Positions 9,575 to 63,938 of a stretch of 64,000 bases of DNA are shown piece after piece. This stretch comes from Stegostoma tigrinum (Eukaryota). A program made the position numbers and the translations under genes. Below the pieces are notes generated by a model, which had not been told where the DNA came from, did not search any database, and saw only the letters and a program-made list of their open reading frames with translations. The stretch spans positions 28,550,392 to 28,614,391 of the forward strand of contig NC_081386.1 of NCBI RefSeq assembly GCF_030684315.1, in the 5' to 3' direction. How positions within the stretch are numbered: the stretch's first letter is position 1; the number at the start of each line of letters is the position of its first letter.

Positions 9575-9683
9575 TGGAGATACTGAGATAAGAAGGTGTG
9601 GAGCTGGATGAACACAGCATGCCAAGCAGCATTCAGAGGTGCAGGACGGCTGACGTTTCAGGCCTAGACCTTTCTTCATAAAA
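9575..9683 (-). mobile_element. Penelope pLTR-derived short repeat with degenerate hammerhead motif
   Basis: Reverse complement matches 63811-63936 and the pLTR ends at 30666-30790 and 34048-34165; core reads ATGAAGA-AAGGTCTAGGCCT-GAAACGTC. Confidence 0.75.
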
Positions 9684-11340
9684 TCTTCATTTTCTGAAAC
9701 CCACAATTTCCGGCCATACATTCCAGCTGCTGCAAAGTGGGATTAAGCTTTCCTCTGGAGCACACAGTGGGCAGAGTGGCCTCTCTGTAGATTTGTCTAA
9801 ATATCTATGGAATGAAAACGTGAATGGATATAGGAAGGAAAATCAAGTTAACTGCACATTCGCAGAACCAGCAGGGGGCACTAAAGGTCAAATCTGCGTT
9901 CTGATTCTATTCCACGGAACGTCAGCCTATCGTTGACTCAACCAGTGAACAGTCGGACTGTGAAGAGTTCTCGACATACTTTTTAAAAAGTACAGAAAAT
10001 TAGCTGATCCCCTGGAACTCACTAACCTGCTTAATTGAAAAATAATAAATAAATCCTCAATCTACTCGGGCTATATTAGAGATTAACTAATATCCCCAAG
10101 GATTGGACGACGGAGATGAAACCCTTTTCAAGGAGTTCTGAAAGTTTTTTTCTGGTGAAGCCACAACATTCGGTGGGTGTCTACTGTTCTCCTATCCTGG
10201 AGATACTGATGGCACTGCAGTAGGTTTTCAGTTAGTGACAACCCTTCCACAACCACAGCCTGGTTTCTCACTCTTCACACAGGAGTCGAAAAATCTGATT
10301 TTCAACATGCTATTCAACCATGACTGGCATTCCCATCCTCAACGATTCGTACGCACATACGTATAAAATAAGAAAAGGCGAAGGCTATTCAGCTCCTCTA
10401 GCCTGCTCGACCATCGGTAAAGATCACGGCAGGTCCGGTTGCGGTCGCAACTTTCCCGTTCTGTTTGCCCCTATCAAAAATCTAACTCTGCTTTGAATAA
10501 CTTCAGTAACAATGGTTTTACTGCTTCATGGGGAAGAGAATTTCAAGACTAATGAGGGGGCAGAATACCTCAACTTCATGTTAAATGGGAGGGTTTTTAA
10601 AAAAACACTATCTCCCCGGTTCTGGTCTCTCCCACCGGGGGTAACATCTTTTCTGCATCCACCCTGGGGTCGTGTGTGTAAAAGATACATGCAATGTCCA
10701 CCGGAGTTCACACCATAGGTATTATGAACGAAATTTCAGTAACTATTTCGGCTCCGACCTCCTGACCAAGCAGTCGGAGATAAGTAAATCGTCACTGAAG
10801 CAATAATGATAGGCCCCCGGCGGAATGACACCTTCCCCGTCGTTTATATCGTACATTTCTCAAACACACCCATTTTGGCGGTTACATAGCTGTTTTGCAA
10901 AAATGGGAATATTTATTTTCGATTGCCATAATCCTAGCTCTTCCAAAACAGCAGTAACTTCACTTTTCCCCAGTAACCAAGACCACATCAATATTAAATC
11001 ATATGGACAAGACTTGAATGATCAAAAGGCAGTATCGGGGTAAGAAACGTCAAATGATTTAAAAATAAACAAAGAAAATCACCGTGTTCAATCCCTGCAC
11101 ATTCCGTCCCTACACTCTAAATAAACCCATAAATCTAATTTTAGTTGCTGGTGCCATAAGATTAAATAATAAATCTGAAACCACAGCCTCAGGGTCAAAA
11201 ATCTCCGGTCGCCCATCCGAGTACAGCGAGGTAACTGACGGGGATTGGTTCCACCCCTCCACAAAAAATCTTGATTCGCCTTGATTTAAAATAAAATGCA
11301 CAGGTTTTAAATACTCTTCTTGTTTTCTGTTAAAACTGCT

Positions 11341-11700
11341 ACTTACGGCTGGGGCTGAGTATTCAGTGCAGGAGTCCCATCGAAATGTATCTTTCTAAAA
11401 GCGAACGGGTACAATTGAGGGGAAAGACTGAAACTGACTGTTGGGCTGGGCCTCGCCTGTCAACAAAGGCAGGGCGGAGCAGAGAAACATTGATCGACGG
11501 TGAATCTGACCAATCCTCAAAGCTAGAGTGTGATTGACAGTTGGGAAATTACCCATTGCGGGCTCGAGAAGGCGGGCACTCGACAAGTTTCAAGTGATCA
11601 AGACAACAAGATGTGAGGCTGGATGATTATCTCTGATACTAAGTTTCAAGTGAATCTAGGAAGTGGTTGTGGAAACGGGGAGGCCAATCACCTTACAAGG
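11341..11700 (-). promoter_or_regulatory. Candidate promoter and non-coding first exon of a gene transcribed away from AEN
   Basis: Local CpG enrichment, GC box GGGCGG (~11472), CCAAT boxes (~11510, ~11684), consensus donor CC|GTAAGT on - (acttac at 11341-11346); no coding exon recognised downstream in the window. Confidence 0.45.
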
Positions 11701-13539
11701 CTGCTTGGCTGCACAAGTCGTCCACGATTGATCCATACCTGGCTTTCTATTTAATCCATGTACCTCAATAATTTTACTTCTTAAAAAATTCCATCTTTCA
11801 GTATTCAGTTTGATCTTTAACATTCACATCCTGAGGATGGGACTGTTTTAGATTTTAACTAACTTTGCATGAAAAAAGTTATTTCATGGGCTGTCTGGTC
11901 TATTCTGTTTCTCTACTTAAAACACAACAATCAAGAGAAGTAGGCCATTCAGCTGCTTAAGTCCACTCCACCATTCAATATTCATGGCTGATCAGCTTCA
12001 ACACTTTCCTGCACAAAATGCACTGCCATTATTTTTCTCCAAAAATCCACACATCTTGTCTCGAACATACTTGATAGCTGATCCTCCACAATTCCAGTGG
12101 CAACTCATTTCAAAGATTGACCTCTGAGTAAAAGAATTCCCTTTCAACTCCGTCCAAAATGTCATGTCCCTTTTTCTGAGACTGTGACCCTTGATTCTAG
12201 ACTTAACAGTCAGAGGAAAAATACTGCATTTACGTTGTTGAGCCCATTGTATAGGGTCTGATAAAAGGGTTAAATCAGAGAGGTGATATAAGCCCACCTA
12301 CTAATGTGATGCCAAATGGACTTGTGGGAAGAACAGCTTAAGATCTTCGTACAACTTTGTAGTCTCTGTAACAACGTCTGTCATATCAATGTAACTCGTT
12401 ATTAGTTGCTTATTATGCTCTAAGCTAGTTCTTGTTCAATGCAAGAGCCTCTTCTAGGTGGATTGGGAAACGTTTTTCTCCATCAAATTAAGAATAAGTA
12501 TCTACTCAGTCTAAAAGAAGATGGTGGAGAATTTACCACGTGGTGAGATGCAGACTCAGCTTCACTCCAAGTATGAAATCGTGAGCACTGGTGCAGATTT
12601 AAATTAACTTCAAATATAACAGAATCCTGTAATAACTTTGAATGAAGATCACTTTTCATCCTTCTAAACGTAACAGAATAAAGGGCCTGTCAATTTAATC
12701 TTTCCTCATAGCATACTCTCACCATCCCCTCAATTAATTTATTCCTGAATGGCCACATTCTTATTTTAAGATTATGTCTCTTTGTTCCCTAGATTCTGCC
12801 ACCAGATATATCACTTGAAGTGAGTCCCATATCTGCTGGGCATCATGATTTGTGTGTGCTCAGGTGACTTGGCAGGTCCAACATGGAATCACAGATTCTT
12901 GGAGGTTCACGAATAAGGAGTTTCTCAGAGTAGGGTATGAAGTGTAGTCAGCATTGCTATGTGTTTAACAAGTCAATATCCATATGTTGATACAGGTGAA
13001 GCAAAAGGGCTTGATTGTAAATGCAAAGCTTAGTACAAATACAACTTTCCCTACTTTACCTGTCCAGAAGCCAAGACCCCAGTGGGGAAGAATTCAGCAT
13101 TTTTTTCCCCACCACCAAATCATCCATGGTACTTTTCCTCTATTATCCACCATCAATATATCACCTATTTCTAACCAATCAAATTACACGCAAAGCCCAA
13201 CATGCGCAATGAAGATTTCAACTCTTTTTCTTTCTTTATATATCCAGAAGCACTCTCATATACAAGTGAACTTTTTCTTGCCTATCACTGAATCGCTCGC
13301 TATATTTTCCCATGTGTTAACCCACCAGCAGTAAATCACTTGTGTTTTCCAACTGATTAATTTACATGCAAAGCCTGTTTAGGGCAATGTAGACCATCAA
13401 AGGAGAAAGACAGAAGCAGCTAAATCAAAATAAAGTTGGAAGTGGAGATTTCAACTCTTAAATAAAAGTCCAATGAGCATTGCCTGCTCTCAACCAACTT
13501 TGGAGCGTTTTTTTGTTAAAGGGGCCTTATTTTCGAAGA

Positions 13540-13830
13540 CTGACATCATGCAGAAATTGCAAAAACCAATTTACAATTACAAATTCACACAGAAAACTCA
13601 TACAAACAGTAACATGTTAACATCCAGATAAGATTTTTCTGTGATACTGACTGAGGAATAAGTATTGGCAGGACACTGGGGAGCACACCCTGTTTTCTTC
13701 CAAAATAGTGACACGGGATCTTTCACATTCATGTGCACTAGGAGCTAAGGCCTCAGCAATGTTTCATCCAAAGAATGGTCCTCAAACACAATGCAGCACT
13801 CCCTCAATACTGCACTGAAATGTCAGTCTG
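13540..13830 (-). mobile_element. SINE fragment, DeuSINE/SacSINE1-like (tentative)
   Basis: Reverse complement contains cagtgcagtattgagggagtgctgcattg and a core shared with other copies in the window; family name from memory only. Confidence 0.45.
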
Positions 13831-16800
13831 GGTTTCTCATTGTAAACATTTTCCATTTGGTGCACAAGAGTTAGATTTTTAGATTTTAAAGACATTAAGG
13901 TGAATGGGCAGAGTTTAGGAATATAGCAATTGAATGAAGGATCAGCCATGATCAAATTGAATGGCTTTCTCTTGCTTCTAGTTTCCATGTTACAATCCGC
14001 CATCTCCCACTTTTTCTTTTGTGTTCCTGAAGGGACTGATGTATGTTGGGATTTTGGTTTGTTTACAGTTACACAGCATACTTCCTGTTCCTTTGTGACT
14101 ACTGTGTCTATATTGTGGAATTCCCCAACTCTCAGATTTGCAGAAGTATCTTCAGGACATAGACAGCAGTGGTTCAATAACATGGTTTATGTTCACATTT
14201 TCATCAGCAACTTAGGATGGGCTATAAATGGCGTGCGTGTTGAAAAATCCCACTTTCCAAGAAAGTCAGTTAACACTTCAGGTGGGTTAGTTTTCATCAC
14301 TGATGTGAAATATTAACCCTGTTTCTCTCTCCATCCTACTGCCTGTCCCAGAGTATTTTTGGCATTTTCAATTCAGATTTCCAATGTTTGGAATATTTTA
14401 CATTAGTTCATCAGCTGTGAGTTTGGGGTACCAGTTACTTTTGCCTTGAGTCAAAAGAATGCTTCAAGATGTGTCCCAGATACCTGGGCACAAATGTCTA
14501 GGCTGACATGCTGGTGCAGTAGGGACTGTGCAGGCTCTGTTCTTCAAAATTACATTGAATTAGTAAACTGGAGTGATCAAATCTGAATGGAAATTAAAGG
14601 CTTCAAGAATACAGGTAGATAGCATGTGTCTGTTCAATGCTGGATCTGAGGGTCTAATCTTAAGGCTCTGCACCAGAAACCGAGCCCTCTGGCAGAGTCC
14701 AAATCAGTAATTTATACTTTGTTTTAAGTAATTCTTTTTAATTTCTCTTCGCTGACATCCATGCTGTTTTGGAACTTTGAATGCTAGACTGAATTATACT
14801 TTCATAAAGAAAGGTATCAATTTTAAAACTGTATGAAATGTTTATGGTTAATATGCAAAAAGGATGGTTTGATCATTTCATATGTTCAATTTCCACTCAT
14901 AAAAAGGAAGATGGTGTGGTCTTGCTTCAATTGTAAATTGGGATAACTACTACGCCTGAACCCCAGGGACCCTCTGACTGCATAGAATCATATTTTAAAT
15001 TTACGAGTCACTGAAATTTCATTTCTATCTGTTCTGAATCCCAAATGACAGTAATTATACACTATTTCAACTGTGTTGAAAGCAATCTACAATTAGACCC
15101 GTGGTGATGTCTCATATAAAGGGACCCAACCCTATTACTCACAAAGCAAAGGAAAACTCATTACAGGTGTTAAAAGGTGTTGCGTGCCTTTTATAAAATA
15201 TCATAGGTTGCAAAAGGTTAAATTAAGAAGTCAACGTCCAGGGAATTTATAGAGGGTGTGAGAAAAATAAGTTAGACTTTTAATCAGTGTTGAGTGTAGA
15301 CCAAAACATATTTGTATCTGTACTGATGAAAGGGATACCTCTGATGTTGGAATTCTACAGGGGGAGGGAAAAGAAACAAGCTCAGGCTAACAAAAGCAGT
15401 GAGTATCTGAGCCATCTCAAACAAAAAGACCACCAAGTCTGTGCTAAATTTGTCACTTTCAATTGGCAATTCAACATCAGTCCACTGAAACAAGTTTAAA
15501 AACTTTCATTGATGTGGTGCCACTCACAAGGAGGGCTCTCATGACACAGTGAAATGTCCTTACCCCTGTATCAGAATACCTGGGTTTAAGCCCCACCTGT
15601 TCCAGAGGTGTATACTAAAAGCATCTCCACAGATTGATTAGGAAATATTTAGATGGTGCTTTTCATCACAGAATCACTGAGTTATTACAATGCAGAAGAT
15701 ACCATTTAGCCTATCATGCATGCAAAGAGAAAAAAACTGAGGGACTCGAACACAAAACCTGGAACAGCTCAGTGGGTCAGACAGCATCTGCAGAGGGAAA
15801 GAGAGTTAACATCTCACATCTGGGACCATCTCAGGCTTCAAACATTAACTCTTCTTTTCCTCAGCAGATTTCCTTGACCTGTTGTATTTTTCAGGTTTTA
15901 ATTGTTTGTTTGGTGAATAGAGGGACTGAATCTCACACCTGAGAAAGGATCAAATCACTAATCAGGGAATGGATTTTGCAGCAAGAGCTGAAAACAATGC
16001 TTCAGATTTTGCAATATTTAATCGGGGGAATTTTCAGTTGTCTTGAGGTGCCTGCATTCCTCCAGTTTTGACCCTCTTGCACATCTCTGATTTCCATCCA
16101 TTCATGATTGGTGAGAATGTCTTAGGCCCTAATCATTGGGTTCCCTCCCTCAACCTTTCCACAAACCCACATCTTTCTTTGCTTTTCAAACACCCTTTGA
16201 AACCCGCCTCTTTAACAAAACTATTGCTCCCTATCCTAACATGTGACACAACGTCGAATGCCATTTGATAGCACACCTGAGAAGCGGTTTGACACATTTT
16301 GCTGTACAGCATTAAATGTGTTATTTCAATGCAAGTTAATGCACTTTTTAAAAAAAAGTGTTGGCAGACCAATGCATCAAATGTAGCCAGGCAGGGGCAG
16401 AAACAGAAAACATGGCTTCCCAGTCTGAGCACAGCCAGCCCTGTAGAAGAGAAAACTAGTAAAATTTGCAAATGATATATGGTGGTCTGACTCACCTTGC
16501 ACACATTAAAATGGAGCTCCAAAGTGATCAGTACATTCATTTCCAAGTATTACTTCTTTCTCTAACTGTTTTTAATCCCCTCTAGCTGTTTATTGGACCC
16601 GATGTACACCCCATCTTAAACCATGTAGCCAGGCAATTGTCAAAAATTGTAACGTCAAGACCGCAAGGGGAAATGAAAAATATTAAGAACTGTATGTTTT
16701 TATGTGTGTGTGTGTGTGTTGCAGAATGTGTGAATAGAAAGGGTAGAATGTGAAAAACTGAAAAATCTACAGTACCAGCTGTACAATGGTGACATCTACT

Positions 16801-17800: not shown

Positions 17801-18649
17801 ATAAATTCAAACTTTTTTTGGAGCAGAAATCAATGTTAACAGAGTTTCAATCAGCAATTCAGGTACAAAAGACTGCAGTCTGCTTGATGTTTTTGTCAGT
17901 GAATCACAAACTTGTTACAGTGCCAGGTCTCTAAATGAGCATCTCTACAAAATAAAAGCAAAATACTTTAGCTGTTGTAAATCTGCAATAAAAATGGAAA
18001 ATCCTGGAGAAACTCGGCAGATCTAGGGCATTATCTGTTGAGACAGAAACAAGATTTACTATTTGGAGTCTGACATGACCCTTCTTCTGAACTAAACAAT
18101 GGCAGCTCCATGGAACTCTCTCACTCCAGTGGGAGAAGCATTCAAGAAAGTGTTTAAGATCTTGAATGTTTCCGACAAGCCCAAACGGTGGAGGAAGCAT
18201 GTTAAAATCCAAGCATCCTGCCAGCTTCTTCAACACTCAGATGACCCTGCCATGGTAAGGTATGCAGATCCAGCACTGGGCTGTGAATCACCTCATGACC
18301 TGCAACTCTGGAGTGGATCTCTCAACCTCAGAGGGACTGACGAAGACTTTACAGTCAGTGTCCCTGGCCTGACCCTCAAGGCTACTCTCAGCACCTACCT
18401 GACACTGAAGCTGCCATTGGTCCGACCCCCAAACTTGCCCTCACCTCCATGTGACCCCCAAAGCCCGTCCCCACCCCATTTGGCCTCCAGCCGCTGGCGG
18501 CGCTGTGCGCAACTCAGGTGCCTCTCGGATTTCCCTCTTGCCCCTTTGTACACTTAAAAAAAAATTCCCCCAAAAGAGATATTAAAGCATATTGGCCAAA
18601 GGCAGCTATACCGAGACCGGTCATGGAGCAGCCACGATGCTAATGACCT

Positions 18650-19591: not shown

Positions 19592-20925
19592 GTAAGGCTC
19601 AAGGGTTAATTTAGGAGCAGAGGCCTGTCTCTCTCCTGAATTTACAAGGTTAGAGGATGATCTGATCAAGATCAGGAAATGACAGCGTGGATTAAGAAAA
19701 AAAATAAATCAGTTACTAACAGAAATGACAGGGTACGTAGAAATAAATTATCTTCGAGAGGGAGTTGAAAACAAGTTGCTGGAAATGCTCAGCAGGTCTG
19801 GCAGCATCTGTGAAGAGACGTCAGAGTTAACGTTTCAGGTCCAGTGACCCTTCCTTTTCGAGAGGGCATATCCTGACAGCAGGGGCCAGACCCTTGAGGA
19901 GAGATTTCGTGAAGTATTTCCACACCCTGAGGGTGGTAGAGGTTCGCAACTCTCTGCCACAAACGGCATTGGATGCTGCATCAGGTTTTAATTTTATGTC
20001 TGTGATAGATTTTGTTCCCCCCCCCCCCCCCCAAACGTACTGAAGGATGTGGGCCAATGGATATAGGTCACAGATCAACCAGCATCTTAGTAAATAATGG
20101 CAGTGTCCCAAGGGGCCGAATGGCTTTCTGCTGATCAGTGTAGGAGTGCCGCACTGTCAGGGTGTCAGCGCCGAGAACGTCGGCACTGTCGTCAGTTTCT
20201 GAAAAAGATGGTGTGTAAATGCCAGCCCCTCGGCTGTGATTCACATTTTAAATGTTGTCAAACAGAGCTGAGTCAAAACCCTAAGTCCTCCTTCGTAAGC
20301 AGCATTTTGGATGCATCTGCTCAGCTATGACTTGCACACATCTGGATAGTGCCTTTCCACTATCTTCTGGAGGAATGTTTGGGTTGGGCAGCCAGATACT
20401 GGTCTAGCCAATGACACCCACACCTCATGAACGAGTACAAAAAAGTTGCATAATAATCACTGGGGGAAATGACCAGTTAATGTTTTGGATTGTATTGTTT
20501 GAGAGATAATAAGTAGTGTGTATATTCCTGTCCCCTGCCCTTAAATAATGCCACATGATTCTTTTGTCTGAACAGGCGGTTGGGGGGATGGGCTGAAGAA
20601 GGTATTTCAGACGATTTATCACTCGGTACTTCACTGATGTGTCAGTGTGGACTATGTACTAAAATCCACAAATGAAACCTAAGCTTCTTGCCTGGTAATA
20701 ATGTGAAAGTTCTGGCAACAAATTAGTGAAGTCTAAATCACTATCTGGCAGAGCCTGATGATGAAAAATATTAAACTTACCTGTGCTGAGATTCATTAAT
20801 ATGCATTGACTGTTTCCTTCTAAACTCAGGGGACTGATAACTTGTTATTACTAGGAGTCTCCACTTAATTTAAGGGACTTGTGTTGATTTTGCAGATTCC
20901 AAGAAGTCTCCATTTGGACTAAAGA

Positions 20926-21699
20926 ATGCCAAGTGTAGTTAGCATGCGTGTAGACCCTGCTGTACCCTCTTCTGAAGTCACAGACTTCAGGCTGCTCCCT
21001 GCATCTTCCAGGTTAAACCAGTTCCTCTGCTGCTCACCTGTGGCTGCAAGCCCCGATGGCCAGACCAAGCGCAAGAAGATACCAAGCCGGAGGCATGTGC
21101 GTTTCCTGGAGAGGAAGGCTTTCCTGGAGAAGGAAGGGATTCTCAAGCAGGGTCACATGAAAAGGAAGCAGCGACCTTTGAACCAAACAAGCTGTCCGAG
21201 CATCAGTAACCCAAACTATACACTACAGTCTGGAGATGCCACGCGATCAGGTGGTTCTGATGTGAATGGAGATCAGTCCCATCTGATTGGTGCTTCCAGT
21301 CCATGGCCTGAAGCTGAATGGAGAGATGTTCACTCTACTTGCTCTTCGAAGTTCATGGACCAGAGTGATAAAACTTGTCCTTTAGAAAGGAGAAATCTGC
21401 TGAATCCTGAGGACCTTTATGGGCTGCCACAAGCTGCACTCCTGTGCCAGACAAGTCTGTCACCCATCTGCTGTAATCCTGCCAAGTATGTGGCAATTGA
21501 CTGTGAGATGGTTGGAACAGGCCCCTGTGGGCGTGTTAATGAAATGGCCAGGTGTAGCATCGTGAACTATCAGGGCCTAGTCATCTATGACAAGTATGTG
21601 AAGCCTAAACAACCCATCACGGATTATCGGACCCGCTGGAGTGGCATTCGAAAATGGCATATGGTGAACGCAATTGAGTTCAATGTTGCTCGGAGGGAG
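20926..21699 (+). CDS. AEN: Apoptosis-enhancing nuclease, first coding exon (basic NLS/NoLS region + ExoI motif)
   Basis: [26 protein letters not shown] resembles the AEN N-terminal basic motif; [12 protein letters not shown]...ARCSIVNY...YDKYVKP...[11 protein letters not shown]; donor GAG|GTGGGT, phase 0; acceptor at 20895. Confidence 0.93.
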
Positions 21700-47885: not shown

Positions 47886-47958
47886 GGTTGTGAAGCTAAC
47901 ATGAATTATGTAAGTGCCTGTTCTTTCTGCTAATGAAGAGTTCATCAATTTTATTCAG

Positions 47959-49419: not shown

Positions 49420-51962
49420 CAGGAGAAGAAAATAAATGAGGTCGAGGAAGTATGTAAGAAAGGCAGTATTACAATAATGATCTGGGGCCTTTGATACACC
49501 TTTGGACTGGGAAAAGCAGGTCAGCAGTGAACCTCAAGCAAGGGATTTTGTGGATGTCAATGGGATGGCTTTTTGGAGCAGCTTATAGTAGATCCCACTA
49601 GGGATCAGGCAGTTCTGGATTTGCTGATATCTAATGAGATTTGACTTGATTAAAGTGATGGAAGCCTGTAGTGGGCAGTGACCATAATTTGATAGAATTC
49701 ACCCTTTCAATCTGAGAGGGAGGAGCTGGCCAGAGTTGAATGAAAGGAAAACCTAGCAGGGAAGACAGTGGAGCAGCAATGGCAGGAGTTTCTGGAGGTA
49801 ATTCAGGAGGCACAGCAAAAATTCATCCCAAGGAAGAAGAAGCATACTCTAAGGGGAGGATGAGGCATCCACAGCTGACAGGGGGAGTCAATAACAGAAC
49901 AAAAGATAAAGCATACAATGTGGTGAAGATTAATGGGAAGCCAGAAGATAAAAATCAGCAGATGGATAACTAAAAAAGCAATGAGCGGGAAGAAGATGAA
50001 ATATGAGTGTGGTTGTAGCTAGCTAGTTATGTAAAGGAAGACTGCAAGAGTATTTTACATATATAAAAGGGAAGGGAGGGGCAAGAGTGAACATTGACAG
50101 CTGGAAAATGATGCTGGAGAAGTGATAATGGAGAACAAAGAAATGGTGGAGGAACTGAATGGATGTTTTGTATCAGTTTTCACGGTGGAAGACACCAGCA
50201 GCATACCAGCACATCAATGGAAGGGAAGCGTAGCAGGGAAGACAGTGGAACAGCAATGGCAGGAGTTTCTGCCACTTCTTTGACTACTCTCCTAGCCAAG
50301 AGAGTTTGGCCGGGGTGCGGGCGGGGGGTGGTTGCTGGTGGGGGTGGGGGTGGTGTGGTGTAGAGGTGAGTATACAGGCCATCACTAAAGACAAGGTCCT
50401 GGGGAAGCTGAAAGTCTGAAGGTGGGTAAATCACCCAGACTGGATGGACCACGCCCCAGAGTTCTGAAGGTCATAGCTGAGGGGATAGTAGAGGCATTGA
50501 TAGTGATCTTTCAGGAGTCAGGGAGGGTCTCAGAGGACTGGAAAATGACTAATGTAATACCCTGTTTAAGAATGGAGGGAGGCAGAAGACAGGAACCTAT
50601 GGGTGAATTAGCCTGACCTTGGTCACTGGTGAGGTTTTAGAATCCATTTTTAAGGATAAGATTGCAGGGTACTCGGAAATGTATGGTGAAATAACGCTGA
50701 GTCAGTATGGCTTCATCAAGGGGCAGTCATGCCTGACAAGTCTATTAGAATTCTTTGAGGAGGCAACGAGCAAATTAGACAGAGGAGAGCCAGTGGATGT
50801 GATCTGTTTGGATTTCCAGAAGTTCTTTGATAAAGTGTTGCACATGAGGCTGAGAAATAAGATAAGAGCATAAGAGGTGTTATCACCAAGGCACTGGCAT
50901 GGATAGGGGTGTGGCTGACTGTCAGAAGGCAGAGATTATGGATAAAGAGCTTTTTTTCAGGATGACAGCTGCTAACTAGTGAAGTTCCACAGGGGTCAGT
51001 GTTGGGACCACAACTGTTCATGTTATACATCCATGATCTGGACAAAAGAACTAAGGAAATCGTTACGAAGTTTGCAGATGACACAAAGATAGTTGGAGGA
51101 ACAGGTAGCGTTTAGAAAATGGGGAGGTTGCCGAAGGACTTGGTCAGGCCAGGAGAGTAGTCGTAGAAGTGGCAGATGGAATACAATGTGGGAAAGTGTG
51201 AGGTTATGCACTTTGGTCGGAAGAATAGAGGCGTATGCTATTTTCTAAATGAAGAAAGGCTTTGGAAATCTGAACCACATAAGAATTAGGAGTCCTAGTT
51301 CAGGATTCTCTTAAGGTTAATATGCAGGTTCAGTTGGCAGTTAGAAAGGCAAATGTGATGTCAGCATTAATTTCGAAAGGGTTGGAATACAAGACTAGGG
51401 ATGTACTGCTGAGGCTGTATAAGGCTCTGGTAAGACCGCATTTGGAATATAGTGAGCAGTTTTGGGCCTCATTGCTAAGGAAGGATAGGCTGGCATTGAA
51501 GGGGGTCCAGATGAGGTTTGCAAGAATGATCACTGGGTGAAGGGATTGTCATATGAGGAGCCTTTGAGGACTCTGAGTTTAGAAGGATGACGGAGGATCT
51601 GATTGAAACTTACAGAAACCTGAGAGGCCTGGGTAGAGTGGACGTGGAGAAGATATTTCCACTCATTGGAGAGATTAGGACACAAGGGCACAGCCTTGGA
51701 CTGAAGGGATGACCCTTAAGAACTGAGATTTAGAGGAATTTTCTCAGGTGGTGAATCTGTGGAGCTTATTACTGCTGAAGGCTAAGGAGGCCAAGTCATT
51801 GAGAACCTTTAAGACTATAGATAATTTCTTAATTAGTAAGGGACTCAATGGTTACAAGGAGGTGGGGGTGAGAATTGGGTTGAGAAATACATCAGCTAAG
51901 ACTGAATGATAGAACAGACTCAGCGGGCCAAATGGCCTACTTCTGCTTCTATACCTGACGGT
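49420..51962 (+). mobile_element. Long decayed CR1 LINE (endonuclease end + RT) in ISG20 intron 2
   Basis: Degenerate EN motifs (gatcccactaggg..ctggatttg, gtgaccataat), [49 protein letters not shown]. Confidence 0.92.
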
Positions 51963-52606
51963 CTCTCCTGCCTTGTTTTCTCTTTCACTCCCTCTTATTT
52001 ATCTTCTTGTTGTCTTTCTGTCTCCCTATTTTCTCTTGTTCTTACTCTTTCTCCTTCATCTCTACTTTGTTCTTTCTCACACATTCTCTCTTTCTATATG
52101 CATGTTTGCTGCTGCAAAGGGATGTATGTGAATTAGCGGAGCTTAGGCACTCAGGTTACATTTATGCCGTTATTCTCGCTGGAGATTTTATGGGTGACAT
52201 GGAGCCTTTTGTATTGTATCTTATGGAAGTGCTTAAAAATATTTTGCTTTTTAGATTTTAAAAAGAAATATTTTGAAATAGGATCAGAAAATGATGAATG
52301 TCTAATGGGTCAGTTGGCATCTGAAAACAAATGCGAGGTTAACCGTTCTGCTGGAACTTTTACCAGACATTGCATTTATTTTATCACAGGCTGTGGGTAG
52401 CACTGACTAGACCAGCAGTTCTTACCCCGAACATAATTACTCTCAAGGAAATGATGGTGAACCTCCATCTTAAACTCATGCTGGTGTAGATACATCCACA
52501 GTGCTGTTGAGGGTGAGTGTGAGAGTTCTGGGGAGTGTGATATCTTGTCCTTTGAAAGACAAATGCCAGCATTTCCTGAGTGTTCAAGAAAAGAGCCATG
52601 TCCAAC

Positions 52607-52828
52607 TGAACTAACTGCGCAGAGGCTGGTATCCCTTCATCAAGTCACCCTTTATTTACATGTGCACAGTACATGGGCTCTGACCAGCCAGTCCCTAGAA
52701 TGAAGAGACTCTCCAAATCTCCTGTTATATCTGTCAGCCATGGTTTCCTGAATTGCCCAGGTTAACAAACCCAGTCAAGGATCTCATAGTCAATGGATCC
52801 ACTTGGACCTGGTTCCAATCACTATGCA
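52607..52828 (-). mobile_element. Solo LTR of the Gypsy family
   Basis: Reverse complement matches 42468-42694 (caagtcaccctttatttaca, atatctgtcagcca). Confidence 0.75.
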
Positions 52829-53556
52829 AACTCAAAATGTTAACTCTTTTTCTCTTGCTACAGATGTTGCCAGATCTGCTGAGTTTCTCCAGCATTTGTT
52901 GGCCTTGCCCTGTTCCTTTCAACTGTTCCAACTCTGTGTTGAGAGAACTTTGCCTTTCTGCATTGGAATCTTTGAACTCCCTTCTAAACAGCACTATGGT
53001 TGACCCTACACCACATTGTATACAGTGGTTCAAGAAGGCAGCTCACCTTTACCTTGTCACAGACAACTAGGGATGGATAATAAATGTTGACCCAGCCAGT
53101 AATGCTCACGTCCCATAATTGAATTTAAAAACTATGATAAGGCAGATCAGCATTCAAGAAAGTAATATGTTAGTTAGCTAGTATCAGCCTAAAAATCTTG
53201 AATGAAAGCAAAATACAAAGTATGAGTCATACTACGCTTAAAATGTTAATTCACTCTGCTCCTCTCTCCATAGATACTGCCAGAATTTCTCCAGCTTTTC
53301 CTGTGTTAGCTTTGGTTTAAAGTACTTTCAGATCAACTTCAGTACAGATTAAATACAGAGTAAATCTCTCTCCCTATCTTGTTCCAGCAAGTACTCCCAA
53401 GTAAGATAAAGTTTCAGTCAGGTGCTCAGTAGAACTCTGCACTGCCCCAACAACATGACTGAATCTTGGTTTCAACTGAAGGTGCACTTGACAGAACTAA
53501 AGTGCAGTTTCTACTCTGAGACCTCCACTGACTGTTGTAGTCTTTCCCTTTAACAG

Positions 53557-53706
53557 GACAGCTACAGAGGACACTCCTCTGTCGAAGATGCGAGTGCGGC
53601 TATGGAACTTTTTAAACTCGTGGATATAGTGTGGGAACTGCACCTCCGTGAGGGACGCAGAGTGGAAATAGTGAACCGATTTGAGAATCGAAACAGATAT
53701 CAGTGA
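53557..53706 (+). CDS. ISG20: ISG20 last coding exon (not in the ORF track)
   Basis: ccctttaacag|GAC; DSYRGHSSVEDASAAMELFKLVDIVWELHLREGRRVEIVNRFENRNRYQ*; ExoIII HSSVED; spliced ORF is 193 aa. Confidence 0.92.
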   Translation, partial: DSYRGHSSVEDASAAMELFKLVDIVWELHLREGRRVEIVNRFENRNRYQ

Positions 53707-55480: not shown

Positions 55481-55682
55481 ACAAAAACAAAGTTGCTGGA
55501 AAAGCTCAGCAGGTCTGGCAGCATCTGTGAAGGAGAATCAGAGTTAACGTTTCGGGTCCGGTGACCCTTAGAAGGGTAAGTTCGGAGGAAGGGTCACCGG
55601 ACCCGAAACGTTAACTCTGTTTTCTCCAGTAACTTTGTTTTTATTCCTGACTTACAGCATCCGAAGTTCTTTTGGTTTTTAT
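55481..55682. mobile_element. Head-to-head palindromic Penelope-type repeat with hammerhead-like motif
   Basis: Perfect 31-bp inverted repeat 55539-55569/55589-55619, outer arms 55483-55500/55625-55642; CGGAGGA-A-GGGTC-accg-GACCC-GAAA-CGTTA. Confidence 0.8.
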
Positions 55683-56756
55683 AAGGTTTGGAGGGACACG
55701 AGCAGGCAGGTGGGAAAAATTCCGTTTGGGATTGTGTTCGGCATGGACTGGTTGGACCGAAGAGTTTGTTTCCGTGCTGTATGACTCTGTGAGAGCGAGA
55801 GTCTCATTTAATGAAAAGACAGTCCACGCAGGACGGAGTAGCAAAGCCAGAACCTACGTGGGTTGTTCAGAGTAATGTTGGAAGCTGCATGTGCAGTTAG
55901 AGAACAAGTGCAATGGACTTGCAGAAGCTGAATAGTCACTTCTCACCTTGTGTCATCTTATTTTCTTTTTGAAAAAGTGAGACAATGAATAATGTATCAT
56001 GAAGATTGCTGTCAATGCATGTTGGTACTGTACTCTGACTGCTTTGCCAGCTTAAGCAAAGTTTGAAAACCTGAGGATTCCTCCTTTCCACTACGTTTTG
56101 CTGTGTACAAATCAGCGATGTCAAAATAGCAATGACTGCATTCTTTTTTTAATGCGACATTGGCCAAGGCCAGCATTTCTAATTGCCCTTGATCTGTGCG
56201 GCTCCCTAGGGCTGTATCAGACGATAGTTGAAAATCACTACATTGTTGGGGTCTAGAGTCACATTTAAGTCAGACCAGGTAAGGAAGGCAGATTTCCTTC
56301 CTTAAAGGATGTTAGTGAACCGGATGGATTTTACTCCAATCACAACGATAGCATCATGGTCACCGATTGGCTTCATATTTCCAGATTTAAGAACAGAATT
56401 TAAATTCTGCTGGATGTTATTTGAATGTCATGTATCCCAAAACATTCACCTTGGCTTCTGGTTGAATAATTCAATAACAATTACCAATTACCATCAATCT
56501 CTCCCCAAAACTATTTCCAATGTAACTTGCGGGAAACAGCCCAGGCATATGAGAAGCACAATATAAAAGAATGATGATATTTTCTTTCCTAAGCAATGGA
56601 TGGAATTTGAACAAGTGAGGCTAAAGCCTGCCCCACTGCCCAAGGAGCTGTGCTTGAGGAACCTCGACCAGTCTCAGGCTGGTGTGACACTTCCTCCATG
56701 TAGAAGAGCCCACATTTTTCCTTTAACCAACACCATCAAAAATAGGTCATTTATTC

Positions 56757-57051: not shown

Positions 57052-60000
57052 AACTGCAATATGTGGGACCTTAAATGATTACTGTGTTTGTCAATGGAAC
57101 AATGATTACATTCCAAAGAAAAAGAAGAATGATTGCGTGCAAAGATGTTTTGGGTTGTCCCAAAGATGACAAGGCTCTATTTAAATGCAAGTTCTTTAAA
57201 ATGGTGATGACACTTTTTTTTACTTTGGGACATAGAAGGTACATCACAGTTGAGTCTGTAATTGTTCCCAAGTTGAAACCAGCTAACAGCACATGTTGGT
57301 TATCAAAAACTAGTCCTGGCTTTAAGCTACTAGCTGTATTCCACCTGAATCATGTACTCAATTGTACCATCAGGGAGGCAATGAACAAAACACCTTTGTC
57401 CTATTTAGCCACAGTGTCGGCAAAACGCTATCTAATTCCCTCTGTTCTAAGTTGCTTTCTCCCTGCAATAATTCTAACAGCACTTCAGCATCTAAACGAA
57501 AACTAAACTGGAACTAGAAACAATTAATCATCAAATTTACTTTTATTCAGTGAGATGGGTGAGTGAAAATTGAAATGATCTAAACATATAGTGATTGATA
57601 GAATCAAATTTCTGATTGAAATCACACAAACACATCTTCAAATGTGTACAGCCATTGAATAAATTCAGGCATTACAAGCATTATGAGAGAATTGTACATC
57701 TCCTCAATATACAGGACTTATGTCCCTGATTTAATCATCAACACACTATTCCTATTGCATAATATTTCATATACTCCATGAGAGGGTAACTCAGATTGAG
57801 ATTCATGAGGTCCCATTGACAGGGGATATGCTACCATCTGGGATCATTCTGTCTAGACACCAACTACTGAATCCATAGCCAACTTTGGCCCTGTTTAATA
57901 TGTGACACCAGAGCAAAATGTGCTGATTTCTGTACCAGCTATGTTCTTCTGTGTCGGTAAGGTCCATGTGCCCTGTGAGGCACTGTGACCCAGGGCAACA
58001 TGTCAGCCTCTCTGAATAGTATGAAATGTATAAAAAAAAGGAAGAGATCAGTGTAACTCTAGTGACATTGCCATTACGCTGGCCAAAGGCATCGTTAACT
58101 ATTTATCTCTTAGCCCTAGCTCTTGGAGCAGACCGGAGTTGGGCTGCAGATTGGCAGGGAGGGGTTGATACCATTCCTGGGGATAAATCAGCTTGAATGA
58201 CTTAGATCTGATCATCAACTCCTTCTAACCATGTAGTTTCAACTCTCTCTCCATGAGGTGCTGGCCACTACATTGCTGGAAGTGCCAACTCATTCTGTGG
58301 CATGACTTTGCCTTGTTCTTCAGCCAATACCGACTTAAACACTATTTTTTCAGGAACTAACACAGATGGAGAACGGGACAGGTGGAGACGGTCTTTTTTC
58401 TGGTGGCATGCTCCAGTCCAACATGTTATCAGGTGGCATGCAAGCAATCTGTGAATGTTCAACAAAATTGTGGGTCTCGTCCTGTACTCCTGCCAACTGT
58501 TTATCCCTCAGACACCTCAGTTATCCCTCAGTCAAACACAGATGATCAGGTCAAAAATCACAATGCTATATGCAAGAGTTTGCAGTGAGAACATTGGCTG
58601 CTGTGTTTTACATATAACAACACCTCTAAAACATGTAATTGGCTGAGACACATTTAGCACATACAGAGATCATGAACGGCACTATATAAATGCAAGTTGT
58701 ATGTTCCCCGGGTGAAAATTAGTGAGTTAACAGGAGGCATAACCTAGTGTATCAGGAAAAATGAGATTTTCAGTAGCAAAGAGCAATTGAATTGCACTGA
58801 GACTACTCTGAACCTATTATATAATCAACTGATCCCATTTAGTGGCACTCAGGACCTCATTTAACAGGATTCATTAAAGAGTGGGGGTTTATATAGCCTC
58901 ATTTATTCTCTATCTGAACTATTCTTTTCCTGCATTCTGTTCAGTTGAGAGCCTGCAGCCAGCAGTCTTTACACCGCACATGTTTAAACACTATCTGTGA
59001 TGTGATAATTACTCTTAGAATAAACCTGGTGCTCATATCAAGACAAGAGGTAACTGGGAATCAGTGCCCAAGCAACTAGCTACTTGCAAGGTTTTGCTAA
59101 GAAAATTCATTCTGGGATGTGGGTATTGCTGGCTAGGCTAGCATTTATTACTCATCCCTGCTACTGAGTGAGATATCTGTACTCCAGTCCAGCTGCATCA
59201 GTCACGTGTGATGATTATTTTCTCACTGGGGTAGAATAGAATTGTACATTTTCTGTCAATTCACTAGCACAGAATGGAGGCATATCACTCAACTCATCAC
59301 ATCCAATCCCCTAGTCTATTTGATAGTGCAAAAGTTAAGTATTGCTTTTAAAAAAAGACACATCTTGTTGAAGCTTTTCGTCTTGCATTTATCAGGACAA
59401 TTTGCAAAAAACTGAATGAAAGGGAAAACAACATTGATATCATATGAGAGGAGAGTACTGATTGGTTGGCAAGTGGATTCTGATTGGTAGAGGCATTGCT
59501 AGGAGAATGTGATGAATGATGATGACTGACAGTTAATTGCCAAATTTTGTTTAAATTTTAAAGCAGTCAAGTTGACTCTGATTGGCAAAGGTATTGTCCT
59601 GAGACATGAGCCAGTGAATAGCTGTTAGCTATTTTGTTGTACAGAAACAGGTGCACACATGTACATGTTCTTTCTACCTGCAAAGACATTGTCCTGTGCA
59701 TTAATATACAGTATATATTCCACATTGATGTACCACACTGTAAAGCTGATGCACAATCACACCAAATGTTGGACACTGTATTGTGATATGTGCAAGTGCG
59801 GGCTGTTTGGCTACAATCAATACCCTGCTTGTTTTAAACAGCTGAAGAGATGTGTTGCTTGATGAGATCTACCAGACACACAGCCTACACACCTAATATC
59901 ATAGCATCACACATGTTCTGCCTATCACACGAATGAACAATGTGGTATATTGAATTTCACCACCTCTCGTACAGCATAAATGTTATTCTGTCTTTACAGT

Positions 60001-60719
60001 GGTATTCTTGTGAATTATCCGATCAGTGTAAGACAAAAAGCTTTGACAAAATGTGATGGAAAAGGTGAAAATTGTTGATGTTACTAAAGCACTCGTGAAG
60101 TAATCAGAGCAGTCTTGTAATGTCATTATTACCGAGTTTAATGATGCTACACCAGGGACTCCACACAAAACAAGTTTTTTTTTAACCTGTCTTATATCCT
60201 CTCCTTTTGGACAACAGTATGCTGGCATGAATCCGTATGATGGGCAAGGTTATGCCAGATCAAATGGCATCCCTTCATAACAACGGGCACTTGACATGAT
60301 CCAACTGAATAGATCTGAGACCTAAACAGCCTACTCTTGTTCACTTGTTCCTAACCCACATTGAAGGGCTGAAGCCCAAAGTACGGGCTGCCCCTAATCT
60401 GAAAGAATGAGTTGCGGAGGCGTGGGTAAAACAGAAAATAAGGACTTGTTGACAGCAAGCTCTGGTTTGGTTGATTGTTGGGGGAAGTGAGGCTTGATTT
60501 ATCATGATTCTGGGATCCATATGAGGAAGACAAGGTCTGAAGCATCCACTTCAAACAAAGGTGAGGATAAAGTGAAGAGGATCAGTGTAAGACATAGCTT
60601 TGAAGGAGCAAGAAAGGAGATTGCTGAGGAAACCTGATGTTAATTATTTTCATTAAATTGGCAAAATCAAATGGGGATGACAATATGCAGTATGGAGAGG
60701 GCTTGGTAGATGGAACCTA

Positions 60720-61900: not shown

Positions 61901-62137
61901 TTACGTGGTGGCCACACTTGTGTTGGCCCTTTTGTCGGTGAAGAATCTCTTCAGGATAATCACCTGGCCCACAGTGACCAGGAAGAGGATGATGGTCTCA
62001 CTGGATGCCCAGTAGATGATATGGGTGTTCATGTCTTCTGCATGCAGGCGATCGATCAATGCTTGTATCCGCTGTTGTGCCTGCATGCTCATCACACTCC
62101 TGAGTGCAGTATGGATGGAGAGGCAGGAGGCTTCCAG
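61901..62137 (-). CDS. Last coding exon of a p24/TMED gamma-family protein (TMED3/TMED7-like); upstream exons not found in the window
   Basis: ccctcctcag|CTG; LEASCLSIHTAL...AEDMNTHIIYWASSET-TM helix-GQVIILKRFFTDKR parallels the TMED3/7 C-terminus (coiled coil, TM, FF motif); 78 aa + TAA. Confidence 0.85.
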   Translation of the reverse strand: MEASCLSIHTALRSVMSMQAQQRIQALIDRLHAEDMNTHIIYWASSETIILFLVTVGQVIILKRFFTDKRANTSVATT

Positions 62138-62204
62138 CTGAGGAGGGAACCAAAAAGAATTACACTGCAGTCTAACTTCCTGGGCCATTAACAATCAAAA
62201 GGGA

Positions 62205-62491: not shown

Positions 62492-63474
62492 AACAACAAT
62501 AGCGATGCTTCATAAAACTTTTCCTTAAATGAGATATGAGTGTTACTGGCCAAACCAGCATTTATTGTCCATCCTTAGCTGCCCTGGAACTGAGTGCTGC
62601 ACTAGGGCCATTTCAAAGGGGCAGTTAAGAGACACTGCTCAGAGTTCCACCAACACCTCAGAGGACAATAATGGCAGGTTTTTTTTCCTAAAGGACATGA
62701 ATTGAAGTGAATTGAATTGAATTGGTTTAGCTTTATTGTCACCATTTCAAATGAGTACAGTGAAAAGTTAATAAGTTGCCACTTACAACACCATTTTAGG
62801 TACAAAGGTACCTAGGTACAGCTTCTTCAGTTACTTGGCTACTTCCAGTGTAACAATGTCACCAACGCATTAGTGAAACCAATGGGCTTTGACATATTTG
62901 TTGATTGTTCCATGGTCACCAATACTGAGACTAGGTTAATACTCCAGACTGATTAATTAATAGAATGATCACCAGTTGCTGTGGCGAGATTTGAGCCCAT
63001 GCTCCCCAGAACATCAGTCCTGGCCCTAATGACTACTAGTCCGGTGACATTAATTGTACGTCGTGCTCTTCTGGTCACCCTATTCATTAGCACTGTCATT
63101 TTTCAAAATTATCTCTTTTGGACTCAGGATAATTGTTGAAATTTTGACCCAAACATCGGACATGCACCGGAATATAATCTCTCTGCGGCTCAGCCAAACT
63201 GCCCTGTGTGATTTATCCACAAAGCCACAACTGGGAGATGAGGAGAACTTGTTTTTAAATGCAGAGACTTGTCAATATGTGAAATGGGCTACTACAAAAT
63301 TATGTGGAAGCAGGTTCAATTATAACTTTCGAAGAGAAGTTGGACAAATATTTCAGCAAGAACAATTTAGCCAGTATATGCAAGGGAGTGACAAGGGGAA
63401 GGCAAGGTAAAAATAAAGGTAAGGGGGTGACACTCAAGGAGAGTTACTTCAAAGAGCCAACATTGGCATTTTTA

Positions 63475-63715
63475 TTTTCATTCTTTCATGGGATGTGGAC
63501 ATGACTGGCAAGGCCAGCATTCGTGTCTAGCTATAATTGCCCTTGAGTGGTTTAGCAGGTCGTATCATTGGATAGTTAGAAATTAACCATATTATTGAGT
63601 CTGAAGTCCTATGTAGACCAGACTGGGTAAGGGTGGCAGATTCTGTTTGCTAAAGGGCATGAGTGAACCAGTTGGATTTTTACAACCATTGACGATAGTC
63701 GTATGGTCACCTGCA
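63475..63715 (-). mobile_element. tRNA-headed SINE, partial
   Basis: gggatgtggac...ggccagcatt...atgtagaccagactgggtaagg family body. Confidence 0.7.
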
Positions 63716-63792
63716 TTTCCTCTAAATTTTACTGTCGCTGCACAGGCTTTCAACACAGTGACTTCTGGGACCGGAAGTCAACGTATCTACAC

Positions 63793-63938
63793 TACAACGT
63801 ATCTAGCTCTCTGATGAAGGGTCTAGGCCCGAAACGTCAGCTTTTGTGCTCCTGAGATGCTGCTTGGCCTGCTGTGTTCATCCAGCCCCACATTTTATTA
63901 TCTTGGAATCTCCAGCATCTGCAGTTCCCATTATCTCT
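63793..63938 (+). mobile_element. Young Penelope pLTR-derived insertion with target duplication
   Basis: Flanks GTATCTACAC at 63783-63792 and 63939-63948; homologous to the pLTR ends of 30232-34165. Confidence 0.85.
63805..63843 (+). ncRNA. Minimal hammerhead ribozyme-like motif with intact core
   Basis: CTGATGA (63811)-A-GGGTC-ta-GGCCC-GAAA (63831)-C-GTC; palindromic ACGT in place of stem III; stem I weak. Confidence 0.6.

What the first reader, a model, noticed from the sequence alone, without database searches (positions are those of the whole stretch)
9575..63843. At least four hammerhead-carrying Penelope-type repeat families, with an apparent antisense bias in introns
Seen: CTGANGA-stem II-GAAA-palindrome motifs with different stems: GGGTCTAGGCCC type (9660, 30666, 34048, 35430, 63811), GGGTCACCGGACCC (19840, 55550-55610), GTCACC/GGTGAC (27340, 27530, 49030), GGAGC/GCTCC (23580) and G(T/A)GCAAGAC (43750, 59385). 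Known: PLEs carry minimal type I hammerheads in their pLTRs that are proposed to cleave as dimers via a palindromic stem III. Intronic copies with both core boxes (27324-27365 -, ~49020-49055 -, 63811 +) are all antisense to their host gene. Sense copies noticed (27520, 52830, 53240) are mutated or lack the core. Inference: a large, under-annotated population of non-autonomous ribozyme retroelements shaped by host selection.
Basis: partly seen in the sequence, partly recalled or inferred. Interest (0 to 1): 0.7.

Follow-up and report, generated by a model that had tools for sequence, protein, structure and literature searches.

The report
Shark Penelope stubs carrying minimal hammerheads
These motifs are mostly broken minimal "hammerhead" RNA motifs left by five related kinds of Penelope-like jumping gene in a carpet-shark genome, a known arrangement whose lone copies are likely inert, and the proposed avoidance of the gene's reading direction in introns is not supported by the few copies here.

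Summary
The repeats are real and Penelope-like (PLE). The window (carpet shark; AEN+, ISG20-like+, TMED−) holds one decayed full-length RT–GIY-YIG PLE with two pLTRs (30232–34165) and 18 short remnants of five sequence types (A–E). They show PLE hallmarks: 5' truncation, head-to-head inverted arms, a ~40-nt tail and 8–12-bp target duplications. The family motif is the published minimal type I hammerhead, but only two sites in the window (63811, 27360) have a complete core, and both lack another element.

The antisense bias is unsupported: 5 antisense versus 3 sense arms in mapped introns (P=0.73), and both core boxes in 3 of 5 versus 0 of 3 (P=0.20). The 27340/27530 'copies' are two arms of one insertion. 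One oddity remains: those arms differ at only 3 of 149 bases, all in the core of the sense arm (about 1e-4, post hoc, one locus), although the RNA is predicted to fold shut.

The stubs are best read as dead 5'-truncated copies, not retrozymes. This scan reported the same elements in other shark DNA; one unchecked note found no strand bias in 34 genes. Known biology, new shark members.

The parts
30232..34165 (+). Decayed near full-length EN+ PLE (family A): pLTR 30237-30794, frameshifted ORF about 30830-33750 (N-terminal part, DKG motif, RT, C-x4-C-x2-C linker, GIY-YIG), pLTR 33651-34161; 8-bp duplication at 30224/34166; lies between AEN and ISG20-like
30666..30693 (+). Family A hammerhead remnant in the 5' pLTR (CUGAAGA intact; G12A, stem III decayed)
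34048..34075 (+). Family A hammerhead in the 3' pLTR (G12A; stem II 4 bp plus closing C-G, ACGU palindrome, stem I 2 bp)
63793..63938 (+). Family A solo stub, core 63811-63838 complete, stem I only 2 bp; 10-bp duplication at 63783/63939; antisense in the last TMED intron
35324..35446 (-). Family A solo stub starting at A9 (no CUGANGA box); 94% identical to the 63811 copy; between genes
9551..9684 (-). Family A solo stub, C3 missing; gene context unknown
19763..19856 (-). Family B stub cut off at A6; 10-bp duplication at 19753/19857; antisense in predicted AEN intron 1
55484..55687 (.). Family B head-to-head inverted pair in an 11-bp duplication: minus arm starts at A9, plus arm (core 55583-55612) has U4G, 4-bp stem I, an internal deletion and the longer 3' end; downstream of two ISG20-like poly(A) hexamers
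17988..18097 (-). Family B old stub, core decayed (U4A and others); context unknown
15744..15900 (.). Family B old inverted pair joined within the stem II remnant
1465..1603 (.). Family B old inverted pair
14261..14356 (.). Family B very old, weak possible inverted pair (E 0.008 and 1.7)
11601..11679 (-). Family A 3' fragment, weak (E 0.035)
52822..52908 (+). Family B old stub, sense in the last ISG20-like intron, CUGANGA box absent
53208..53309 (+). Family B very old stub, sense in the last ISG20-like intron, core unrecognisable
27247..27434 (-). Family C antisense arm in AEN intron 3: complete core 27360-27327, stem II 6 bp, stem I 3 bp, ACAT instead of ACGT; ATG at A9 opens a PLE-ORF-like frame; carries the ~40-nt tail
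27435..27596 (+). Family C sense arm of the same insertion (12-bp duplication 27235/27595, inside a CR1-like LINE): U4A 27523, G12A 27548, C17U 27555
48966..49094 (-). Family C old stub, both boxes present, stems broken; antisense in the last ISG20-like intron
23510..23619 (-). Family D stub (CUGAAGA at 23594, GGAGC/GCUCC stem II, G12A, AGCU palindrome) with a ~20-nt inverted copy of its 3' end at the 5' side; antisense in AEN intron 2
43700..43822 (-). Family E stub (CUGAUGA at 43759, G12C, 2-bp stem II type, AAGCUU palindrome); upstream of the first ISG20-like coding exon
59337..59459 (-). Family E stub (G8A)
59960..60074 (+). Family E stub, decayed
20926..27951 (+). Context: AEN coding exons 20926-21702, 23957-24160, 27748-27951; predicted non-coding exon 1 ending at 19591
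45485..53706 (+). Context: ISG20-like exonuclease coding exons 45485-45712, 47959-48162, about 53557-53706
61901..62140 (-). Context: last coding exon of a TMED/p24 gene (PF01105); its last intron runs off the window

Best explanation
The sites are one decayed full-length Penelope-like element and about 18 short remnants of five sequence types whose ends carry a minimal hammerhead motif, and the short ones are likely dead, 5'-truncated copies whose lone ribozymes would not cut the host RNA. Shown: RT + GIY-YIG ORF between two pLTRs for family A; truncation, inverted arms, one-sided tail and target duplications; core damage in all but two copies. Inferred from the PLE literature: the element's endonuclease nicks AT-rich DNA. 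The RT then starts inside the element RNA, about 70-110 nt 3' of the hammerhead, copies back through the uncleaved ribozyme and usually stops early. A second priming or fold-back gives the inverted arm, and two start sites give the tail. The hammerhead matters, if at all, in tandem element transcripts, as a dimer or with protein help. After insertion the copies decay, mainly at CpGs (G12, G16.2, C11.1). The strand pattern in introns is read as small-number noise.
For: ORF homology over 30928-33747 to RT-GIY-YIG proteins, 72% to a bamboo-shark protein. Linker C-x4-C-x2-C and DKG present. Target duplications of 8-12 bp at 5 of 11 insertions tested, with one further weak 7-bp match. Family C arms end 67-69 and 108 nt after the ATG at A9; in anole PAc the ORF starts at stem II and RT starts at +111-118. 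The C frame matches a protein that continues into a PLE N-terminal domain (37-35 bits in 1.8 billion proteins; 29.6 bits to a profile of 120 PLE proteins). G-C closing of stem II is seen in at least one copy of each of A-D and is inferred for E from its three decayed copies. Palindromic stem III occurs in all five types, for C in the read consensus. Stem II pairs in 98% of cells over 10 A/B rows and exceeds all slid controls. All 20 arms aligned extend 5' of the cut site. Published: single min-HHR showed no detectable cleavage; PAc HHR needs protein, and uncleaved RNA is the main template. Orientation tests are non-significant. LINE remnants in the same introns lie on both strands.
Against: The three differences between the family C arms all hit the core of the sense arm. 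Two of them are rare in the family (under 1% of summed depth). If the CUGANGA box alone is scored and four copies in unverified contexts are added, intact boxes are 5/6 antisense vs 0/6 sense (P=0.015, post hoc). Families B, D and E are not tied to an ORF here (B only by DNA similarity to A, E 2e-5). A and B short arms begin within about -7 to +6 of C3, tighter than random truncation suggests. Covariation does not exceed the shuffle control (78 of 500 shuffles reach the score). No cleavage or expression data.
Confidence: 0.82

Rival explanations
1. Solo minimal hammerheads cut pre-mRNA often enough (in trans-dimers or with the element's protein) that the host selects against intact sense-strand copies in introns.
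For: 3 of 3 arm differences in the 12 core positions of the sense arm at 27523/27548/27555; simulated chance about 3e-5 to 9e-5 for either arm, with CpG weights 1-20. Both-box copies 3/5 antisense vs 0/3 sense. The plus arm at 55583 also has a U4 change.
Against: One locus, noticed post hoc. The sense arm is transcribed after its complement and is predicted to sit in a hairpin of -296 kcal/mol. Both arms lack the ACGU palindrome needed for dimers. One mutation should suffice, so three are not expected from selection. All tests on mapped introns are non-significant (P 0.14-0.73). Monomers were inactive in vitro.
Confidence: 0.12
2. The short A/B units are non-autonomous SINE- or retrozyme-like elements with their own fixed 5' end just upstream of stem I, mobilised in trans by PLE proteins.
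For: 5' ends of young A/B arms cluster at the ribozyme's 5' edge. 1,401 contigs of run X6 run on past 19855 with only about 10 nt of shared consensus. Solo copies 63811 and 35446 form a 94% subfamily only 79-86% like the full element's pLTRs.
Against: No tandem hammerhead units among 11 tandem arrays. The motif is minimal, not canonical. 5' ends vary over about 13 nt and often remove the catalytic box, as expected of truncation. C and E arms extend 60-90 nt further upstream. Stalling or fold-back at stem II explains the clustering (old pairs are joined in stem II).
Confidence: 0.15
3. A genome-wide antisense excess exists but is caused by ordinary signals (cryptic splice sites, poly(A) signals, promoter) and not by the ribozyme, as for other intronic retroelements.
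For: Antisense bias of intronic retroelements is documented in human (abstracts). A family-C-like segment forms the N-terminus of a predicted RP9 isoform in Hemiscyllium, i.e. possible exonisation.
Against: No significant excess in this window; LINE remnants in the same introns show none.
Confidence: 0.2

Closest known systems
Minimal type I hammerheads (min-HHR) in pLTRs of metazoan PLEs (Cervera & de la Pena 2014, PMC4209133; parts 1-2 of 4 read: abstract, results, discussion, start of methods)
   Same: CUGANGA and GAAA boxes, extra base after A9, G10.1-C11.1, palindromic 15.2-16.2, short helix I, mostly single dispersed motifs from truncated PLEs, some opposite-strand pairs, several families per genome
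   Different: Sharks are not named in the parts read (supplement not seen). Family A has only 2 bp of stem I in the three copies with upstream sequence. Family E has a 2-bp stem II and AAGCUU stem III, closer to the small variants of Lunse et al. (paper not held; title seen only in a reference list, content recalled).
Neptune/Nematis-type EN+ PLEs (Craig et al. 2021, PMC8557442; passages)
   Same: RT then Zn-finger-like linker then C-terminal GIY-YIG; DKG motif; pLTRs; 5' truncation; inverted 5' copy; 30-40-bp tail
   Different: No tree was built, so Neptune versus Nematis is not resolved. The window copy is frameshifted and dead.
Poseidon PAc of Anolis (Frangieh et al. 2024, PMC11167929; parts 1-2 of 4 read, supplement searched without hits, GenBank file unreadable)
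   Same: Family C: ATG just before stem II with C3 and G8 upstream, cut site 28 nt (PAc 26) after the start, longer arm ends at +108 (PAc RT start +111-118), AT-rich target
   Different: No direct sequence comparison with PAc was possible, and no family C RT lies in the window.
Pen2a_Av-type inverted-pLTR insertions of Adineta (PMC3846280; passages)
   Same: Head-to-head inverted pLTRs, tail on one arm, 8-10-bp TSD, pLTR containing the first codons of the ORF
   Different: Here most inverted insertions are only 150-350 bp and have no ORF body.
Metazoan non-LTR retrozymes (PMC7229834, passages; Li et al. 2026 bioRxiv 10.64898/2026.07.22.740005, part 1 of 5 and passages)
   Same: Non-coding, hammerhead-bearing, related to PLE pLTRs; reported in one chondrichthyan; depleted in Xenopus introns
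   Different: Retrozymes are tandem arrays, mostly with canonical hammerheads; none is in this window. 'Orientation' does not occur in the preprint's main text.

Membership tests
EN+ Penelope-like element (family A) | RT followed by C-terminal GIY-YIG in one ORF | tested here: met
   tblastn of RT+GIY-YIG proteins covers 30928-33747 in order, with frameshifts
EN+ Penelope-like element (family A) | Direct pLTRs flanking the ORF, each with the hammerhead motif | tested here: met
   30237-30794 and 33651-34161 align end to end; cores at 30666 and 34048
Neptune/Nematis-type PLE (family A) | CX2-5CxxC linker between RT and EN | tested here: met
   C-x4-C-x2-C just before the GIY-YIG region in the window translation; feature
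Neptune/Nematis-type PLE (family A) | Phylogenetic placement of the RT in the clade | not tested
   No named reference PLE proteins were obtained
EN+ PLE (family C, Poseidon-like) | ORF start at the hammerhead, homologous to a PLE ORF N-terminus | tested here: met
   indirect, through unnamed protein P0244
EN+ PLE (families B, C, D) | Inverted 5' copy, one-sided tail, target-site duplication | tested here: met
   C and B pairs show all three; D shows a short inverted stub but no duplication
EN+ PLE (families B, D, E) | Physical link to an RT-EN ORF | not testable with these tools
   No genome held; no PLE protein hits outside 30500-34000
min-HHR | CUGANGA and GAAA boxes with NUH site | tested here: met
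   Complete at 63811 and 27360; family C read consensus complete. Not met in the other copies.
min-HHR | Stem II closed by G10.1-C11.1 | tested here: met
   98% of cells paired in A/B; 6 bp in C, 5 bp in D; 2 bp inferred in E
min-HHR | Palindromic stem III | tested here: met
   ACGU (A, B; C consensus G at 66-75%), AGCU (D), AAGCUU (E); lost in both C arms here
min-HHR | Helix I of 4-5 bp | tested here: inconclusive
   4 bp in B 55583, 3 bp in C, 5 bp inferred for E, 2 bp in A; 50% of cells paired in A/B, partly because of truncation
min-HHR | Compensatory changes within families | tested here: inconclusive
   1 two-sided change in stem II among 10 rows; 78 of 500 shuffles reach the covariation score
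min-HHR | Self-cleavage as a dimer | not testable with these tools
   needs a bench assay
Non-LTR retrozyme | Tandem units each with a hammerhead | tested here: not met
   none of 11 tandem arrays overlaps a hammerhead
Non-LTR retrozyme | Abundant circular RNA | not testable with these tools
   only contigs were available

The most novel reading that the evidence does not exclude
Inverted PLE insertions are built-in controlled experiments: two arms of equal age, one on the transcribed strand. At 27247-27596 every change fell in the catalytic core of the sense arm. If this holds across hundreds of intronic pairs, lone minimal hammerheads do cut shark pre-mRNA in vivo (or the transcribed core is selectively mutated), and hosts disarm them base by base. 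That would be fossil evidence of in vivo activity for a ribozyme class that barely cleaves in vitro.
Probability: 0.12. Interest if true: 0.65.

Novelty: new member of a known kind. Interest (0 to 1): 0.2.

Why it matters
As it stands it adds shark families to a known catalogue and shows their density: 19 catalogued pieces, about 10% of the window including the full element. Rfam does not flag them, so they are easy to overlook. The useful by-product is a test design. Whether PLE minimal hammerheads ever cleave in vivo is open. Comparing the two arms of intronic inverted insertions removes the age and family confounds that spoil simple strand counts.

Tried and rejected
Whole genome: none held, so no genome-wide count. 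Rfam at E<=5: 5 unrelated matches, no hammerhead. Family A pattern in viral contigs: 0; in metagenome contigs: 1 locus, L001, too few for covariation. Sequencing runs: no RNA holder listed. Laying contigs on 1-20000 to find introns failed because repeats swamped the joint table. The gene context of 1-18 kb therefore stays unknown: 13 open frames from this region gave no convincing Pfam match, and a synteny paper search gave 0. A divergent minus-strand gene there (DET1 by recalled human synteny) is only a guess. One search used a mis-registered structure and is discarded; one search is the valid one. Monomer folding: none of 7 hammerhead regions has the hammerhead fold as its minimum-energy structure; uninformative for dimers. 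Pile-up of copy starts at the cut site, reported by earlier notes on other DNA: none of 20 aligned arms starts there, two weak fragments are unplaceable, and the cut loose-end table lists none; inconclusive. Rejected: counting 27340/27530 or 55550/55610 as independent insertions; 54005- as a family member; a retrozyme array. Literature searches for a published strand bias of intronic PLE hammerheads or for shark min-HHRs listed nothing on it by title or abstract. Subscription papers, including Lunse et al., and most supplements were not seen.

Full report
Setting. The window is from a carpet shark: the exon at 20923-21735 is 89% identical to whale-shark AEN and 77-79% to bamboo and epaulette shark proteins. 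Protein mapping gives AEN on + (coding exons 20926-21702, 23957-24160, 27748-27951) and an ISG20-like paralogue on + (45485-45712, 47959-48162, about 53557-53706). The last exon of a TMED/p24 gene lies on - (61901-62140, PF01105). Splice sites are canonical. A CCAAT-rich CpG island and a donor site at 19591 predict a non-coding first AEN exon (inference). The name ISG20-like rests on homology to AEN and recalled synteny. No genome is held, and the context of 1-18 kb is unknown.

Observation. Every cited site is a copy of one of five repeat types: A (GGGUCUAGGCCC), B (GGGUCACCGGACCC), C (GUCACC/GGUGAC), D (GGAGC/GCUCC) and E (GUGCAAGAC type). A and B are related (nhmmer E 2e-5). Profile searches give 19 insertions covering 6,355 bp; one weaker hit at 22519-22562 (E 0.12) was left out. 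A descriptor (CUGANGA, G-C-closed stem II, GAAA, NUH, stem I) finds 2 perfect sites, 63811+ and 27360-, against 0 in each of 6 shuffles, and 5 with one mismatch. So the motif is real, but most copies are broken. G12A occurs at 30666, 34048, 23594 and 27548; G12C at 43759; G8A near 59395; U4 changes at 27523, 55584 and 18090. The first box is lost by truncation at 19855, 35446 and 55569. Even the two best lack something: 63811 has 2 bp of stem I, and 27360 has ACAT in place of the palindrome.

What they are. The 30666 and 34048 sites are the two pLTRs of one element, 30232-34165, inside an 8-bp duplication. Its frameshifted ORF matches 161 longer proteins at E<=1e-20, best 72% to a Chiloscyllium protein. 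Full-length relatives carry RVT_1 and GIY-YIG and align along 30928-33747. DKG and a C-x4-C-x2-C linker mark it as Neptune/Nematis-type by the criteria in PMC8557442 (passages). The solo A copies end where the pLTR ends. Family C at 27247-27596 is one insertion in a CR1-like LINE. It has two head-to-head arms, a 12-bp duplication and about 40 extra bases on one arm. An ATG at hammerhead position A9 opens a frame. A 36-residue query from it finds 3 proteins among 1.84 billion at E<=0.001. One of these, P0244, continues into a region that scores 29.6 bits against a profile of 120 PLE proteins; the other two do not score. This is the layout described for anole Poseidon PAc, where the ORF begins at stem II and RT starts at +111-118 (PMC11167929); the long arm here ends at +108. 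The B pair at 55484-55687 has the same build in an 11-bp duplication. Three older B pairs and the D stub are also inverted. Duplications of 8-12 bp flank 5 of 11 insertions tested. These features match PMC3846280 and PMC8557442 (passages). E has only the motif and interspersion to support PLE origin.

Population data. Contigs of DNA-like runs laid on the C sense arm give the family consensus. It has U4 (99%), C17 (99%), G12 (57-75%), G16.2 (66-75%) and a U-G/C-G swap in stem II (95% U). The G12 and G16.2 shares are probably lowered by the reference carrying A there. So the consensus has the ACGU palindrome, and decay is mainly at CpGs. In a run of a related organism the core letters are kept while the loop and upstream letters differ. 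Summed depth of 1-4 million against about 20 for unique contigs says 'very abundant'; the tool warns it is no copy number. PLE expansion in whale-shark introns is published (10.1101/443036, passages).

Structure. Over 10 A/B-type rows (9 window, 1 from L001) stem II pairs in 98% of cells and beats all slid controls. Stem I pairs in 50%. Covariation is not above the shuffle control: 78 of 500 shuffles reach it. The better argument is that five different sequences share the features listed in PMC4209133: extra base after A9 (A-D), G-C closing pair, palindromic stem III.

Strand bias. In the six mapped introns (16.6 kb) there are 5 antisense arms (19855, 23594, 27360, 49053, 63811) and 3 sense arms (27522, 52830, 53240): P=0.73. 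Single-orientation insertions are 4 vs 2, P=0.69. Both boxes present: 3/5 vs 0/3, P=0.20. First box only: 4/5 vs 0/3, P=0.14. Full descriptor: 2/5 vs 0/3, P=0.46. Adding four copies in unverified contexts gives 5/6 vs 0/6, P=0.015, but the definition was chosen afterwards and the gene assignments are guesses. The two plain sense copies are decayed throughout. LINE remnants in the same introns lie on both strands. About 70-80 copies are needed to detect 2:1. Many insertions are inverted pairs and have no single orientation.

The oddity. The C arms differ at 3 of 149 positions, U4A, G12A and C17U, all in the sense arm. U4A and C17U are under 1% in the family, G12A is a common CpG change. Simulated chance is about 3e-5 to 9e-5 for either arm, before allowing for post hoc choice. 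Against selection on cleavage: the pre-mRNA meets the complementary arm first and is predicted to fold into a -296 kcal/mol hairpin. Both arms lack the palindrome (self-duplex -0.5 kcal/mol against -3.7 to -6.2 for A, B, E). One hit should have been enough. I cannot explain it beyond chance and keep it as the novel case.

Mechanism. Shown: anatomy, decay, insertion signatures. Inferred: target-primed reverse transcription starting inside the RNA 3' of the ribozyme and running through it uncleaved. All 20 aligned arms span the cut site, in line with unprocessed RNA being the main template for PAc. Also inferred: early termination or fold-back near stem II, and inert solo copies, since single min-HHRs did not cleave in vitro and dimers cleaved weakly.

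Earlier notes of this scan (AI notes, unchecked) describe the same elements in other shark DNA. One reports equal strands in 34 genes, two report intact sense cores in fold-back insertions, and several report insertion starts at the cut site. I formed my reading before seeing them and could test only the last, inconclusively.

Verdict. Real, known kind, new shark members. Bias unproven. Interest 0.2; novel case 0.12 probable, 0.65 if true. Supplements of PMC4209133 and of the bioRxiv preprints were not seen and may list shark motifs.

Noticed in passing
protein P0241 (Hemiscyllium ocellatum RP9 isoform X2): Its first 36 residues match the family C frame (69% over the 42-aa query): a PLE stub used, or mis-predicted, as the first coding exon of RP9.
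   Followed up: partly
window 19855-, 35446-, 55569-, 55579+, 9682-, 18097-, 63811+: 5' ends of short A/B arms cluster within about -7 to +6 of C3, and contigs past 19855 share only about 10 nt: stalling, fold-back or a fixed start at the ribozyme's 5' edge.
   Followed up: partly
window 15818-15830 and 1532-1534: Old family B inverted pairs appear to be joined inside the stem II remnant, suggesting template switching at the hairpin.
   Followed up: no
window 27447-27596 and 27285-27434: Both C arms share letters that are rare in the family (27503 A, consensus G 99%; 27532 C, consensus T 95%): a variant template or arm-to-arm conversion.
   Followed up: partly
window 25717-27735 + and 50358-51968 +: Two 1.5-2 kb CR1-like LINE remnants in sense orientation in AEN and ISG20-like introns; the first is split by the family C insertion.
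   Followed up: partly
window 18960-19600: CpG island with about a dozen CCAAT boxes in 60-105-nt repeated blocks and two donor-like sites (19242, 19592); a possible divergent minus-strand exon near 18450-18540.
   Followed up: no
window 55014-55203: Young 16-bp minisatellite, 11.9 copies, 96% matches, downstream of the ISG20-like gene.
   Followed up: no
window 3164-8137: RNA-guess contigs of a related organism tile this stretch almost continuously at low depth; unspliced RNA or DNA carry-over.
   Followed up: no
window 63763-63810: The 5' junction of the 63811 stub contains a partial repeat of the target sequence, so its apparent stem I strand may not be native.
   Followed up: partly
L001:118-145 (-): A related minimal hammerhead with intact core in metagenome contig SMVA01140775.1, probably animal DNA.
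   Followed up: partly
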